NCBI RefSeq assembly: GCF_057098645.1
Contig: NZ_CM169472.1
Direction: 5' to 3' (one strand)
Length of the DNA stretch: 64,000 nt
Position numbers: made by a program. Of this stretch, positions 54,323 through 60,300 are shown one piece after another. The first letter of the stretch is position 1, and every line of letters starts with the position of its first letter.

Positions 54323-57300
54323 TTACACCTTTATTGGCGGTTTCCTCGCGGTGAGCTGGACTGACACTGTACAGGCCAGCCTGATGATTTTTGCCCTGAT
54401 CCTGACGCCGGTTATCGTCATTATCAGTGTCGGTGGCTTTGGTGACTCGCTGGAAGTGATCAAACAAAAGAGCATCGAAAACGTGGATATGCTCAAAGGG
54501 CTGAACTTTGTCGCCATTATCTCGCTGATGGGGTGGGGGCTGGGTTACTTCGGGCAACCGCACATCCTGGCGCGTTTTATGGCGGCGGATTCTCACCACA
54601 GCATCGTCCATGCGCGTCGTATCAGTATGACCTGGATGATCCTCTGCCTGGCAGGGGCGGTGGCTGTCGGCTTCTTTGGTATCGCTTACTTTAACGAGCA
54701 CCCGGCGGTAGCAGGTGCGGTAAACCAGAACGCTGAACGCGTGTTTATCGAACTGGCGCAAATTCTGTTTAACCCGTGGATTGCCGGGATTCTGCTGTCG
54801 GCAATTCTGGCGGCGGTAATGTCAACCTTAAGTTGCCAGCTGCTGGTGTGCTCCAGTGCGATTACCGAAGATTTATACAAAGCGTTTCTGCGTAAACATG
54901 CCAGCCAGAAAGAGCTGGTGTGGGTAGGGCGTGTGATGGTGCTGGTGGTGGCGCTGGTGGCCATTGCGCTGGCGGCAAACCCGGAAAACCGCGTGCTGGG
55001 CTTAGTGAGCTACGCGTGGGCAGGCTTTGGCGCGGCGTTTGGTTCGGTGGTGCTGTTCTCGGTGATGTGGTCACGCATGACGCGCAACGGTGCGCTGGCG
55101 GGGATGATCATCGGGGCGCTGACGGTTATCGTCTGGAAACAGTTCGGCTGGCTGGGACTGTACGAAATTATTCCGGGCTTTATCTTCGGCAGTATTGGGA
55201 TTGTAGTGTTTAGTTTGCTGGGTAAAGCGCCGTCAGCGGCGATGCAAAAACGCTTTGCCGAGGCTGATGCGCACTATCATTCGGCTCCGCCGTCACGGTT
55301 GCAGGAAGGCTAAGCTGAAGAGTAATTATTTATCTTTTGCTTTTTAACCCGAATGTTCCCTGCCATGCGGTATAAGTTGCCTGGCAGGGAGTGTTCGGGG
55401 GCAATTGCTATTTGCCCAGCCGGCACAGATGAACAAAATTGCCGCTATCGGTACCTTCAGCTTATGTCCTGCGGCTGGTTGGTTGGGCGAGATAGAATGG
55501 ATTCGACATATTCCCGCTGTTTTTTAACCACGCCAGTTTTCTCGCACCTTGCTTGGTCACTCCGCTCGATTTCAGGTAGGATCTGGCAGTAGACCACTGG
55601 AAGCCGCGTTTTTTACTCCACTTTTCGGCTCCCCCTGCGCTGTTACGCTCCTCCTGGGTCATATTCGCCCATTGTACGATGTCTCCGAAGGTGAACGTGA
55701 CCCATTTCTGCGGCCCTGTCAGCTTCAACTCACCCAGGGCGGTAAGCCCGTCGTTCTTCAGGTAATTCCTGGCAGTAGTTGGCGCGAGGTTTCTTTCCTT
55801 ACACCACTTTTCTAAATAACCAACTGGTTTTCGCACATGCTTGTCTAAGGCTGCCCACTGGCGGATATGTTCAAGGGTGAATTTGGCATATTCATGCGGC
55901 CCGTTTACCTTTACCTGTCCCGCGTAGTTCAGGCCGTGATCGGTCAGGTAATTTCTGGCATTTTTGATATTAAAATGATTGCGCGTACACCATCCTGAAA
56001 CTCCCTGTAGAGCGTTTCGCGCCTGCTGGTCCATAGCCGCCCATTTTCGCATGTCGTCTACAGTCAATTTAACATATTGCTGTGGCTCGTCCGCCTCTGG
56101 CTGGTCCTCGATGGTCTGCCTGGTGTTGTTTATGTCGTCATTTGCAGCATTTGGTGGGATGTTGCTTGTATTACACGATTGCTGTAATTCCACATCGTTA
56201 CGCCACGCCAGCGGAGACATATTTCCAAATTCTCGCATGCCATTGTTGGTAAAGTGTGTTTCTTCTCTTCCGTATTGCTGGGCCGGGGAGTAGCGAGCTG
56301 CTTCATGCACCCTGTTTTGACTTTCATCCGTGAGTATTGGCCGTACGGACCAGAGATCAAAGGTTCCATATTGACTGCGTGACATCAGGGTTGTGACAAT
56401 GGAGTGAAACAGCTCAAGAGTAATATTTGTACTGGTGCACACACCGCTCTTGCTGACTGCAATTTTCATGAGATTGCCCGTGTTGTCATGCTCTTGCGTC
56501 TTCGTGAAGGTGATGGTGAAACCGGCAACATCGAAGGTGAACGGTTCAGGAAGTTGCAGATCATTTGCACTTACCACCGGTTGGAACTGATGTCGATGTA
56601 GTTCGGTTGTCATCGCAACAGCCAGCAAGTGAACCTCTTCAGGAACCAGTGGAGTAACAGCCATGCCCGTGCTGTAGTCCGCATCCCTTTTGATATAATT
56701 ATTCATCTGCACCAGAAGCGTCAAAGTTTCCAGACAACTACTCGGGAGTTGTTGCGGTGGAATATAGGTTGCTGCGCTCGTATTGAGGTTGGATATTGGT
56801 CTCATGTCATGCTCTCCGTATCCTTACAGGGTTAATGATTCGTATTAAGTCGTAGCCATCCGCATGGCTCCGGGCGATTCAGTCGGCGCACCAGGATGTA
56901 CACTTCGGATGCGTTCTTGATGTAGTAAACAATCCGCTCATTCTGGTGTTAATGGAAACACCCGTAAAAAGCAGGAGGAATGCCAGTTATTGGCGAATTT
57001 ACAATGCTGCCATCGGGGTGAGTTTCATGAAGATTATTATTTTTTTTACGCCTTGTATCATCGCGGTAAATAATAATTTCTTCCTGTGTTTCATAAAGTA
57101 TATAGTTACAATTACTCGTGAATTTTATCGATAACTCGACGTTAGCCTTCAGCCAGAGAAAAATTAACTCGCAAATTTTTTAATTTATCGTTAGGGGAAT
57201 GGATAAATTATATTCTCGACCCTAATTACAGGGTTCATCTGAAAGCAGTGGCGTCTCATCTTATTACTTCTCTTTCTTTATTCAACACTAGTGGGGTTGT

Positions 57301-60300
57301 AAAAATGCCATAGTAGAAAAATCATGAGTAAAAAGTCTTTATTAATTATCATCTTATTGATTTTTATGTCTTGGTGTTTGTGATGATTGATTTTCACTAG
57401 AATCTCTTACTTTGATTAAGATTTTTATTTTTTCTTATATTTAACGTTATTCAATGCGCGTCCTGCTACGTTTTATCGTGATTTAGAATTGTATGTAGCA
57501 TTAGCCATAAAATGATATCACTGGGAATATAATAAGGGGAATTATAATTTTGGGGGATAATTAGGCACTATCAAAAATCGCTCATTCCAGACTTAAATAC
57601 ACGTTTTCTCCTGTTTAGGTTATGGGCGAAAAATTCGATGAGGAGACGAGGTATAATTTCATTCACAACCCTATCACTATCTATTAATAAGCAAAAAACA
57701 ACGTTCTTTTGTGATACGACTAACTGAAAATCCAACCCTTCGGGCACGCTGCAGCGAGTTTGTGGGCACTAACATTCGTACAAGCTTCATCTGCCGGGCG
57801 AAACGTCAGCTAAATACCTTAAAATAATCGCTTTTTTCTCCGGATTTGATCTCCTCATTTTTACATTCCAACATCATTTTATAAACATTCCGCTTGTATT
57901 TTTCTTTAGCGTAATGATAATCGCTATCACTGCGATTTACTTTTCTTTGCATAGATTGACTCAGAAAAACGTTTAAGGGTGGGTGGCATGTTTGTTCCGT
58001 TTCTCATTATGTTGCGCGAAGGACTTGAAGCCGCGCTGATTGTCAGTTTGATTGCCAGCTATCTTAAGCGTACCCAGCGAGGCCGATGGATTGGTGTGAT
58101 GTGGATTGGCGTGTTGCTTGCCGCTGCGTTGTGCCTGGGCTTGGGTATCTTCATTAACGAAACCACCGGCGAATTTCCGCAAAAAGAGCAGGAACTGTTT
58201 GAAGGTATCGTGGCGGTGATCGCCGTGGTGATCCTTACCTGTATGGTTTTCTGGATGCGCAAAGTGTCGCGCAACGTCAAAGTGCAACTGGAACAGGCAG
58301 TCGATAGCGCATTGCAGCGTGGAAATCATCATGGCTGGGCGCTGGTGATGATGGTCTTTTTTGCCGTTGCAAGGGAAGGCCTGGAGTCGGTATTTTTCCT
58401 GCTGGCGGCATTTCAACAAGATGTCGGGATTTGGCCGCCGCTGGGTGCAATGCTCGGTCTTGCTACTGCCGTGGTGCTCGGCTTCCTGCTCTACTGGGGC
58501 GGTATTCGCCTCAATCTTGGTGCATTTTTTAAATGGACCAGCCTGTTTATTCTCTTCGTCGCCGCAGGGCTGGCAGCTGGTGCCATTCGCGCATTTCATG
58601 AAGCCGGATTGTGGAACCACTTTCAGGAAATCGCCTTTGATATGAGCGCGGTGCTCTCAACTCACTCGCTGTTCGGCACGCTAATGGAAGGTATTTTTGG
58701 TTATCAGGAAGCGCCGAGCGTCAGCGAAGTCGCCGTCTGGTTTATTTATCTCATCCCGGCGCTGGTGGCGTTTGCTCTGCCACCACGTGCAGGGGCGACA
58801 GCGTCTCGCTCCGCGTAGCAAATACGACGCAAACTCTTGCTTAGTTACAACATACTTTAAATGGATAGTCTCGTCATGACCATTAACTTCCGCCGTAACG
58901 CATTGCAGTTGAGCGTGGCTGCGCTGTTCTCTTCTGCTTTTATGGCTAACGCCGCTGATATTCCGCAAGTCAAAGTGACCGTGACGGATAAACAGTGCGA
59001 ACCGATGACCATTACGGTTAACGCCGGGAAAACACAGTTCATTATTCAGAACCATAGCCAGAAGGCGCTGGAGTGGGAGATCCTCAAAGGCGTGATGGTG
59101 GTGGAAGAGCGGGAAAATATCGCCCCTGGTTTTAGCCAGAAAATGACGGCGAATTTACAGCCTGGCGAATACGATATGACCTGCGGTCTGCTGACTAACC
59201 CGAAAGGGAAGTTGATTGTCAAAGGTGAGGCAACGGCGGATGCGGCGCAAAGTGATGCGCTGTTAAGTCTTGGTGGTGCAATTACTGCATATAAAGCGTA
59301 TGTCATGGCGGAAACCACACAGCTGGTGACCGACACCAAAGCCTTTACCGACGCGATTAAAGCAGGCGATATCGAAAAAGCGAAAGCACTGTATGCGCCG
59401 ACGCGCCAGCACTATGAGCGCATTGAACCGATTGCTGAACTGTTCTCCGATCTGGATGGCAGCATTGACGCCCGTGAAGATGATTACGAGCAAAAAGCCG
59501 CTGATCCAAAATTCACCGGTTTCCACAGTCTGGAAAAAGCATTGTTTGGCGACAACACCACCAAAGGAATGGATCAGTACGCTGAGCAGCTTTATACCGA
59601 TGTGGTCGATTTACAAAAACGCATCAGTGAACTGGCTTTCCCACCTTCAAAAGTGGTTGGCGGTGCAGCCGGACTGATTGAGGAAGTGGCGGCCAGCAAA
59701 ATCAGCGGTGAAGAAGATCGCTACAGCCACACTGATCTGTGGGATTTCCAGGCTAACGTTGAAGGCTCGCAGAAAATTGTCGATCTGCTGCGTCCACAAC
59801 TGCAAAAAGCCAACCCGGAACTGCTGGCAAAAGTCGATGCCAACTTTAAAAAGGTCGATACCATTCTGGCGAAATACCGTACTAAAGACGGTTTTGAAAC
59901 CTACGACAAATTGACCGATGCCGACCGGAACGCGCTGAAAGGGCCGATTACTGCGCTGGCGGAAGATCTGGCGCAACTTCGCGGTGTGCTGGGACTGGAT
60001 TAAGCGTTATGCAGTATGAAGATGAAAACGGCGTGAATGAACCGTCACGCCGACGTTTACTGAAAGGGATTGGTGCACTGGCGCTGGCGGGAAGTTGTCC
60101 GGTCGCTCATGCACAAAAAACGCAAAGTGCACCGGGTACGCTTTCACCGGATGCACGCAATGAGAAACAGCCGTTTTATGGTGAGCATCAGGCAGGGATC
60201 CTGACGCCACAACAGGCCGCAATGATGCTGGTGGCGTTTGATGTGCTTGCCAGCGATAAAGCCGATCTTGAGCGGTTGTTTCGCTTGTTGACTCAGCGTT

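What the first reader, a model, noticed from the sequence alone, without database searches (positions are those of the whole stretch)
56830..57980. About 1.1 kb AT-rich non-coding stretch upstream of the repeat-protein gene and of efeU
No ORF longer than 62 aa is present, the sequence is very AT-rich with A/T tracts, and a Fur box lies at its efeU-proximal end. This probably combines a silenced promoter region for the 447-aa gene with the efeU regulatory region, and could hold a small RNA or degraded gene remnant.
Basis: seen in the sequence. Interest (0 to 1): 0.3.

Follow-up and report, generated by a model that had tools for sequence, protein, structure and literature searches.

The report
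AT-rich island spacer beside efeU promoter
The 1.2-kb gene-free stretch is real but ordinary: about 1.05 kb of AT-rich non-coding DNA that arrived with a strain-variable orphan gene, joined to the 130-bp iron-regulated efeU promoter that nearly all E. coli share, with no sign of a hidden gene or small RNA.

Summary
The gap between the 447-aa orphan gene (55462-56805, minus strand) and efeU (ATG 57988) is 1182 bp (56806-57987). GC is 36.5% against 51.5% for the window. The longest ORF is 62 aa, which is what random sequence of this composition gives.

The stretch has two parts:
- **efeU promoter (57857-57987).** Found in 5417 of 5426 complete E. coli genomes. It carries the Fur box (57910-57928, 15/19) and a CpxR-like box.
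- **Island DNA (to ~57853).** This is the right arm of a 2.5-kb variable segment (55315-57853) present in 643 of 5426 genomes (O157:H7, O55:H7, O145 and others) and always linked to the orphan gene.

Fifteen haplotypes divide the island arm into:
- a conserved block next to the gene (56806-57055);
- an unconstrained, indel-rich AT core (57056-57555);
- a second conserved block (57556-57705).

I found no Rfam match, terminator, stable or covarying RNA fold, conserved ORF or protein homology.

The most likely reading is an H-NS-type silenced upstream region of a horizontally acquired gene, next to the known efeU operator. Silencing itself could not be tested here. Interest is low. The orphan protein's winged-helix-like repeats are the more curious by-product.

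The parts
55315..57853 (.). Strain-variable 2.5-kb segment (orphan gene plus AT-rich non-coding arm). It replaces the 407-bp REP-containing filler found in K-12-type strains.
   Evidence: Homology to the K-12-type locus stops at 55314 and resumes at 57854, or at 57823 against the O26 type. The full segment is present in 643 of 5426 genomes.
55462..56805 (-). Orphan 447-aa gene (ECs1262 of Sakai), annotated 'hypothetical protein'. GC is 0.496.
   Evidence: In the word-indexed protein search the only close homologues are E. coli sequences at 86% identity or more.
56806..57055 (-). Conserved block A, the presumed 5' UTR and proximal promoter of the orphan gene. It contains the Shine-Dalgarno sequence GGAGAG, an 11-bp indel site at 56955/56956 and a candidate promoter at 57061->57033.
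   Evidence: Diversity (pi) is 0.005-0.031, against 0.052-0.060 at four-fold degenerate sites of the flanking genes. Its function is inferred.
56854..56869 (-). Perfect 6-bp hairpin (AGCCAU-GCGG-AUGGCU in the minus-strand RNA), 49-64 nt upstream of the orphan's ATG.
   Evidence: Read from the sequence. It is present in the centroid fold and invariant in the haplotypes.
57040..57047 (.). Poly-T tract whose length varies from T6 to T9 between haplotypes. It lies in the spacer of the candidate minus-strand promoter.
57056..57555 (.). Unconstrained AT-rich core. GC is 16-42% per 50 bp.
   Evidence: pi is 0.05-0.18, partly inflated by compensated 1-2-bp indels. Indels of 1, 2, 4 and 7 bp are not multiples of 3. 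The 19-aa and 62-aa ORFs are each intact in only 2 of 9 haplotypes.
57122..57209 (.). Cluster of three matches of 9/10 or better to the H-NS high-affinity motif tCG(t/a)T(a/t)AATT, at 57122, 57182 and 57200.
   Evidence: These are 3 of the 16 such matches in the whole 64-kb window. They are not conserved in other haplotypes. The motif was recalled from Lang et al. 2007 and not re-read.
57556..57705 (.). Conserved block B, function unknown. It contains a perfect TATAAT at 57652-57657 (+) and a promoter-like site at 57574->57547 (-).
   Evidence: About 7% of columns vary, against about 30% in the core; pi is 0.015-0.031.
57747..57800 (.). Imperfect hairpin of about 17 bp, including the palindrome CGCTGCAGCG. 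Three linked SNPs fall in its loop.
   Evidence: all stem pairs are invariant and there are no compensatory changes. The fold z-score is not significant.
57857..57987 (+). Core efeU promoter/operator, shared by nearly all E. coli.
   Evidence: Matched in 5417 of 5426 genomes. It is common to all four spacer types. pi is 0-0.014.
57910..57928 (+). Fur box, CGTAATGATAATCGCTATC.
   Evidence: 15 of 19 positions match GATAATGATAATCATTATC, the joint top score in the window. It is also the only terminator-like palindrome reported.
57936..57950 (-). CpxR-like box, GCAAAGAAAAGTAAA (9 of 10 to GTAAA-N5-GTAAA).
   Evidence: CpxAR control of efeUOB is from my own knowledge (Cao et al. 2007) and was not re-read.
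57988..58818 (+). efeU, intact here (276 aa from the ATG). It is frameshifted in the K-12-type strain.

Best explanation
The stretch is a divergent intergenic region made of two pieces with different histories.

1. The right-hand ~130 bp (57857-57987) is the ordinary efeUOB promoter/operator. Fur represses it through the box at 57910-57928, and CpxR probably acts through the box at 57936-57950.

2. The remaining ~1.05 kb (56806-57853) came in with the orphan gene as one 2.5-kb horizontally acquired segment. It serves as that gene's upstream region and has three zones:
- a constrained ~250 bp next to the start codon, read here as the 5' UTR with a hairpin plus the proximal promoter;
- a ~500-bp AT-rich core under no detectable sequence constraint;
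- a second constrained ~150-bp block, read here as a distal promoter or regulator site.

I infer that the AT-rich core, dense in A/T tracts and promoter-like hexamers, is coated by H-NS/StpA. That would keep the orphan gene and spurious promoters silent until an unknown counter-silencer acts, and it would space the orphan's control region away from the efeU operator.

Shown here: the composite origin, the conservation zones, and the lack of coding or structured-RNA signal. Inferred: H-NS binding, promoter positions, and any function of block B.
For: - Island boundaries and four alternative putP-efeU fillers.
- 643 of 5426 genomes carry the island arm, while 5417 of 5426 carry the efeU-proximal piece.
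- It is single-copy and always lies between putP/orphan and efeU, including in 16 metagenome contigs.
- Conservation zones measured against a four-fold-site benchmark.
- Fur and CpxR-like boxes.
- GC 0.32-0.37 against 0.515 for the window.
- -10-like hexamers at 33 per kb against 7 per kb, and promoter-like sites at the 97th percentile of the window.
- A/T tracts at 15 per kb against 3.8 per kb.
- Three H-NS-motif-like sites.
- ORF content equal to random sequence.
- No conserved ORF that is informative.
- No protein homology.
- An IS1-associated deletion of about 885 bp of the arm exists in strain eco-241, so the arm is dispensable for viability.
Against: - No H-NS occupancy, transcription-start or expression data were reachable. 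Tree 2014 has no entry for this locus. The Sy 2020 supplements are not held.
- The H-NS-motif matches are specific to this haplotype.
- The orphan gene itself is not AT-rich (GC 0.496), unlike typical silenced islands.
- The promoter-like count is no higher than in dinucleotide shuffles (6 against 4.4 +/- 2.5), so it follows from composition alone.
- A-tract phasing is weak.
- The conservation of block B is unexplained.
Confidence: 0.6

Rival explanations
1. The AT-rich arm is decayed remains of one or more genes of the original island. On this view it is functionless DNA drifting towards the AT-rich mutational equilibrium, and only the gene-proximal part is regulatory.
For: - The core evolves at or above the four-fold-site rate and carries frame-breaking indels.
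- Core GC is about 30%.
- There is a signal-peptide-like 19-aa ORF (MSKKSLLIIILLIFMSWCL, 57324-57383) whose hydrophobic pattern persists across haplotypes but which has stops in 7 of 9.
- The arm is deleted beside an IS1 in one strain.
Against: - No Pfam match in any of the six frames.
- No hit for any stop-free segment of 24 aa or more against 5.8 billion proteins.
- No similar DNA in phages or true plasmids.
- Block B is conserved, which plain junk would not be.

This view is compatible with H-NS binding, so it is only partly a rival.
Confidence: 0.2
2. The arm encodes an unannotated transcript. This could be a small RNA, a very long 5' UTR of the orphan gene, or an island-borne upstream leader for efeU, starting at conserved block B (for example from the TATAAT at 57652-57657).
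For: - Block B is about as conserved as the efeU operator.
- It has a perfect -10 hexamer on the + strand and a TTGATA-16-CAAAAT site on the - strand.
- An invariant ~17-bp hairpin lies at 57747-57800 with SNPs confined to its loop.
Against: - No Rfam match at E<=1.
- No intrinsic terminator in the arm.
- Fold energies are no better than shuffles.
- 0 of 41 predicted pairs are compensatory, and the covariation term is unfavourable.
- There is no good -35 element.
- The locus is not mentioned in the Hfq-CRAC study of Sakai or in its held supplements.
Confidence: 0.15
3. Nothing functional beyond the efeU operator. On this view the conservation blocks only reflect recent recombination or sweeps around the orphan's start codon, and sampling noise.
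For: - Only 15 haplotypes were used, chosen for spread rather than sampled at random.
- Low diversity continues into the first 150 nt of the gene (pi 0.013), which fits a shared recombination block.
- The haplotype structure is mosaic.
Against: - Block B is separated from the gene by the most variable DNA of the locus, yet only about 7% of its columns vary against about 30% in the core.
- A gene needs some promoter, and the only candidate DNA for it is this arm.
Confidence: 0.05

Closest known systems
efeUOB (ycdNOB) promoter/operator of E. coli. It is Fur-repressed and CpxAR-regulated, cryptic in K-12 because of an efeU frameshift, and functional in O157:H7 (Cao et al. 2007, Mol Microbiol; from my own knowledge, not re-read).
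   Same: The right-hand 130 bp is this element. It has the Fur box, a CpxR-like box and an intact efeU, and it is shared by 5417 of 5426 genomes.
   Different: Everything upstream of about 57857 is replaced by island DNA in 12% of genomes. Whether that changes efeU expression is unknown.
Xenogeneic-silencing targets and 'promoter islands': AT-rich, horizontally acquired intergenic DNA bound by H-NS and rich in promoter-like sites but transcriptionally quiet (Navarre 2006; Lucchini 2006; Shavkunov/Ozoline 2009; Singh 2014; from my own knowledge).
   Same: It is AT-rich and strain-variable, has 4-5 times the window's density of -10-like hexamers and A/T tracts, carries H-NS-motif-like sites, and lies next to an orphan gene.
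   Different: There are no occupancy data. The adjacent gene has normal GC. The motif sites are not conserved between haplotypes.
O-island-encoded small RNAs of EHEC (Esr41, the EcOnc series; Tree et al. 2014, PMC4104026).
   Same: An intergenic location in EHEC-specific DNA near an iron-uptake gene.
   Different: No terminator, structure or Rfam support, and no mention of this locus in that study. Esr41 lies beside iha, not here.

Membership tests
efeU Fur/CpxR-regulated promoter | Match to the 19-bp Fur consensus immediately upstream of efeU | tested here: met
   15 of 19 at 57910-57928, the joint best score in the window.
efeU Fur/CpxR-regulated promoter | Conserved across E. coli whatever the upstream filler | tested here: met
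   Present in 5417 of 5426 genomes, common to all four spacer types, pi 0-0.014.
efeU Fur/CpxR-regulated promoter | Iron- and pH-dependent transcription of efeU | not testable with these tools
   Needs expression data.
H-NS-silenced xenogeneic region / promoter island | AT content well above the genome average | tested here: met
   GC is 0.365 (0.321 over 56991-57700) against 0.515. It is one of three such places in 64 kb.
H-NS-silenced xenogeneic region / promoter island | Horizontally acquired, strain-variable DNA | tested here: met
   Found in 643 of 5426 genomes, replaces other fillers, and no species-representative genome holds it apart from one mis-binned MAG contig.
H-NS-silenced xenogeneic region / promoter island | Excess of promoter-like sites | tested here: inconclusive
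   5 sites against 0.96 per 1182 bp elsewhere in the window, the 97th percentile. However, this is not above dinucleotide shuffles (6 against 4.4).
H-NS-silenced xenogeneic region / promoter island | H-NS occupancy and derepression in an hns mutant | not testable with these tools
   No ChIP or RNA-seq data were reachable. The literature searches were empty for this locus.
Small regulatory RNA gene | Match to a described RNA family | tested here: not met
   Rfam 15, E<=1, over 55000-59000: no matches.
Small regulatory RNA gene | Promoter followed by an intrinsic terminator | tested here: not met
   The only terminator-like site is the Fur-box palindrome.
Small regulatory RNA gene | Stable or covarying secondary structure | tested here: not met
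   z-scores of -0.52, +0.85 and +1.21. 0 of 41 pairs are compensatory. The sequences vary too little for a strong test.
Pseudogene / gene remnant | Residual protein homology in some frame | tested here: not met
   Six-frame Pfam scan found nothing. Concatenated stop-free segments against 5.8 billion proteins found nothing at E<=0.01.
Small protein gene | ORF intact across haplotypes, with indels in multiples of three | tested here: not met
   ORFs in the variable DNA are broken in most haplotypes. The ORFs intact in all 9 lie in near-invariant DNA and so tell nothing. Indels are 1, 2, 4, 7 and 11 bp.
Mobile element or MITE | Terminal inverted repeats, target duplication, several copies | tested here: not met
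   No terminal repeats. One copy per genome.

The most novel reading that the evidence does not exclude
Conserved block B (57556-57705) with its perfect -10 hexamer is an island-borne control element. It could be a distal promoter or a counter-silencer site. Through it the orphan gene is switched on against H-NS silencing, or transcription reads into efeU, giving island-positive strains (O157:H7, O55:H7, O145) a different efeUOB regulation from other E. coli. The orphan gene looks like an uncharacterised effector-type protein: three winged-helix-like repeats of a family that is elsewhere fused to SET methyltransferase domains.
Probability: 0.1. Interest if true: 0.5.

Novelty: new member of a known kind. 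Interest (0 to 1): 0.18.

Why it matters
For the stretch itself, little. It shows how a horizontally acquired orphan gene with a long AT-rich upstream arm has been spliced in about 110-130 bp upstream of a conserved iron-uptake promoter without disturbing its operator. It also shows that the putP-efeU spacer is a recombination hotspot with at least four alternative fillers.

It would matter more if either of two things held: the island arm alters efeUOB expression in EHEC-type strains, or the adjacent orphan proves to be a secreted DNA-binding effector whose long upstream region is its silencing/anti-silencing switch.

Tried and rejected
- **Known RNA families.** Rfam at a permissive threshold found nothing.
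- **Structured RNA.** Folds of three candidate segments had z-scores near zero or positive. RNAalifold on 10 haplotypes found no covariation.
- **Small ORF resembling a type-I toxin or signal peptide.** MSKKSLLIIILLIFMSWCL is intact in only 2 of 9 haplotypes, so I rejected it.
- **The 62-aa ORF.** It is intact in 2 of 9 haplotypes and spans an 11-bp indel, so I rejected it.
- **Gene remnant.** Neither the six-frame Pfam scan nor the search of 5.8 billion proteins found anything.
- **Similar DNA elsewhere.** There were no hits in phages. The three 'plasmid' hits are chromosomal pieces of E. coli. Each E. coli genome has a single place.
- **Other species.** A scan of GTDB representative genomes with the orphan protein returned only one mis-binned MAG contig. 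The 16 metagenome contigs all show the same E. coli context.
- **Terminal or tandem repeats of a mobile element.** None were found.
- **Shared upstream DNA with the paralogue next to ygjK.** There is none.
- **'Hypervariable' patches.** Part of the apparent divergence of 15-18% is an alignment artefact of compensated 1-2-bp indels. I therefore claim only 'unconstrained', not diversifying selection.
- **A-tract helical phasing.** It is weak and non-specific.
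Full report
**Where this is.** The window is Escherichia coli. Over the stretch it is 100% identical to strain 95-3192 and 99.9% to an O145 strain. The local gene order is putA, putP (53805-55313, +), a 447-aa 'hypothetical protein' (55462-56805, -), efeU (ATG 57988, +), efeO, efeB, phoH. In O157:H7 Sakai the 447-aa gene is ECs1262 and efeU is ECs1263.

**Checking the observation.**
- The longest ORF wholly inside is 62 aa. Simulated sequence of the same composition gives a median longest ORF of 68 aa, and 38% of simulations gave 62 aa or less. ORF content is therefore that of random sequence.
- GC is 0.365 against 0.515 for the window, and 0.321 over 56991-57700. Only two other places in the 64 kb are as AT-rich.
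- A/T tracts of 5 or more bases run at 15 per kb against 3.8 per kb.
- The left-most 185 bp are an exception, with GC 0.48.
- The Fur box is real: CGTAATGATAATCGCTATC at 57910-57928, matching 15 of 19 positions, the joint best score in the window. A CpxR-like box (9 of 10) lies at 57936-57950.
- No complete E. coli genome annotates anything in the island part of the gap.

**Two pieces with different histories.**
- Megablast against 5426 complete E. coli genomes finds the last ~105-170 bp of the gap in 5417 of them. The whole gap is found in only 643. A more sensitive search with the island part alone gives the same 643, one copy each.
- Against a K-12-type strain, homology ends one base after the putP stop (55314) and resumes at 57854.
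- The 2539 bp in between hold the orphan gene and about 1.05 kb of non-coding DNA. They replace a 407-bp REP-containing filler.
- At least four alternative putP-efeU spacers exist: 219, 542, 665 and 2674 bp. All converge on the same ~130-bp efeU promoter, 57857-57987.
- The island arm was never seen away from the orphan gene. That holds in 643 genomes, in 16 metagenome contigs and in a scan of one genome per species, which returned only a mis-binned contig. Phages and genuine plasmids have nothing similar.

**Conservation anatomy.** I aligned 15 distinct haplotypes, from nine genomes chosen across the identity range plus metagenome contigs. As a neutral yardstick, four-fold degenerate sites have a diversity (pi) of 0.052 in the orphan gene and 0.060 in efeU. 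Against that yardstick:

| Segment | pi | Reading |
|---|---|---|
| 56806-57055 | 0.005-0.031 | constrained; the low diversity continues into the first 150 nt of the gene (0.013) |
| 57056-57555 | 0.05-0.18 | unconstrained; indels of 1, 2, 4 and 7 bp |
| 57556-57705 | 0.015-0.031 | constrained; ~7% variable columns against ~30% in the core |
| 57706-57855 | 0.04-0.05 | intermediate |
| 57857-57987 | 0-0.014 | efeU operator, most conserved |

Part of the extreme values in the core come from compensated 1-2-bp indels that MAFFT aligns as runs of mismatches. I therefore read the core as unconstrained, not as diversifying. One strain (eco-241) has an IS1 abutting the orphan's start codon and lacks about 885 bp of the arm, so the arm is dispensable for viability.

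**Is something hidden in it?**
- *RNA.* Rfam gives no match at E<=1. The only terminator-like site is the Fur-box palindrome. Three candidate segments fold no better than shuffles, with z-scores of -0.52, +0.85 and +1.21. RNAalifold finds no compensatory pair. An invariant ~17-bp hairpin at 57747-57800 has its SNPs in the loop, which is suggestive but uninformative.
- *Protein.* The 62-aa ORF and a toxin- or signal-peptide-like 19-aa ORF (MSKKSLLIIILLIFMSWCL) are each intact in only 2 of 9 haplotypes. The ORFs intact in all 9 lie in near-invariant DNA.
- *Gene remnant.* Six-frame translations hit no Pfam family. All stop-free segments of 24 aa or more, searched together against 5.8 billion proteins, gave nothing.
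- *Mobile element.* No terminal or tandem repeats were found.
- *Literature.* The Hfq-crosslinking study of Sakai does not mention the locus. Open-access searches for ECs1262 and related terms found nothing relevant.

**Most likely mechanism.**
- The right end is the known Fur- and Cpx-controlled efeUOB operator. That regulation is from my own knowledge of Cao et al. 2007 and was not re-read.
- The island arm is the upstream region of a horizontally acquired gene.
- Block A should hold the 5' UTR and proximal promoter. It has the Shine-Dalgarno sequence GGAGAG and a perfect hairpin at 56854-56869. A candidate promoter lies at 57061->57033, and its spacer contains a T6-T9 length-variable tract.
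- The AT-rich core has the composition that H-NS binds. -10-like hexamers run at 33 per kb against 7 per kb, and promoter-like sites are at the 97th percentile of the window. Three matches of 9/10 or better to the H-NS high-affinity motif fall within 90 bp.
- That excess is no more than its dinucleotide composition predicts, and the motif instances are not conserved.
- I therefore rate 'silenced upstream region plus efeU operator, with no gene or sRNA' at 0.6. The silencing step is inferred, not shown.
- The conservation of block B, which includes a perfect TATAAT at 57652-57657, remains unexplained. It carries the residual chance of a distal promoter, a regulator site or an unannotated transcript.

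**Side finding: the orphan protein.**
- A full HMMER scan of 1.84 billion cluster representatives finds 50 relatives.
- Its C-terminal half is three ~60-residue repeats with the consensus ITxxQIxxWxxMSxxERxxAGGxxxWAxxxGIxxxSAxxYLTNxGLTxxGxxRL.
- The same repeat occurs in up to a dozen or more copies in proteins of 240-2136 aa. Several of those end in SET domains. One sits beside lambda bor and an omptin gene.
- With a 24-sequence alignment, AlphaFold2 models the repeats at pLDDT 91.7.
- No Pfam, NCBIfam or PDB sequence match exists.
- The N-terminal domain has 42%-identical paralogues in E. coli next to ygjK.
- This looks like an uncharacterised effector-type family. It is more interesting than the non-coding stretch, but it is a separate finding.

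**Verdict.** The stretch is an uncharacterised member of a well-known kind of DNA joined to an already known promoter. Interest is 0.18.

Noticed in passing
[not shown]
   Followed up: partly
window 55462-56805 (-), residues 28-163; L019 4001-4949: The N-terminal domain of the orphan has 42%-identical paralogues in E. coli encoded just downstream of ygjJ-ygjK. Their upstream DNA is unrelated to this stretch.
   Followed up: partly
window 55314-57857: The putP-efeU spacer is a polymorphic hotspot with at least four unrelated fillers (219, 542, 665 and 2674 bp). All join the same efeU promoter.
   Followed up: yes
window 57040-57047: A poly-T tract varies from T6 to T9 between haplotypes. It lies in the spacer of a candidate minus-strand promoter, so it could change promoter spacing.
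   Followed up: no
window 56955/56956: An 11-bp insertion (TGTCACTACGA or TGTAACTACGA) is present in several haplotypes inside the otherwise conserved block A.
   Followed up: no
L011 2233-3000 (strain eco-241): An IS1 abuts the orphan's start codon, and about 885 bp of the AT-rich arm are missing. RefSeq still calls the gene, with a non-ATG start.
   Followed up: partly
window 57806-57952 (-): A 48-aa ORF antisense across the efeU operator is intact in all haplotypes, but only because the DNA barely varies. From the same ATG, PGAP annotates a 100-aa 'hypothetical protein' in a K-12-type strain (L015). This is probably a spurious call.
   Followed up: partly
window 57988-58818 versus L003 3136-3965: efeU is intact here, as in O157:H7, and frameshifted in the K-12-type strain. 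This agrees with the known cryptic K-12 allele.
   Followed up: yes
window ~37991-40480 and ~25121-26380: These are the two other markedly AT-rich stretches of the window. Their 1182-bp windows fall below 40% GC, with a minimum of 0.321 near 38671.
   Followed up: no
window 6402-6420: A second 15-of-19 match to the Fur consensus, GATGATGCTAATGAATATC.
   Followed up: no
L001 (strain 95-3192) locus tags: The locus tag between the orphan (RS05015) and efeU (RS05005) is missing. This suggests an earlier gene call in the gap that was later withdrawn. efeB of that strain is flagged 'internal stop', whereas the window's efeB ORF (60009-61280) is intact at 423 aa.
   Followed up: no
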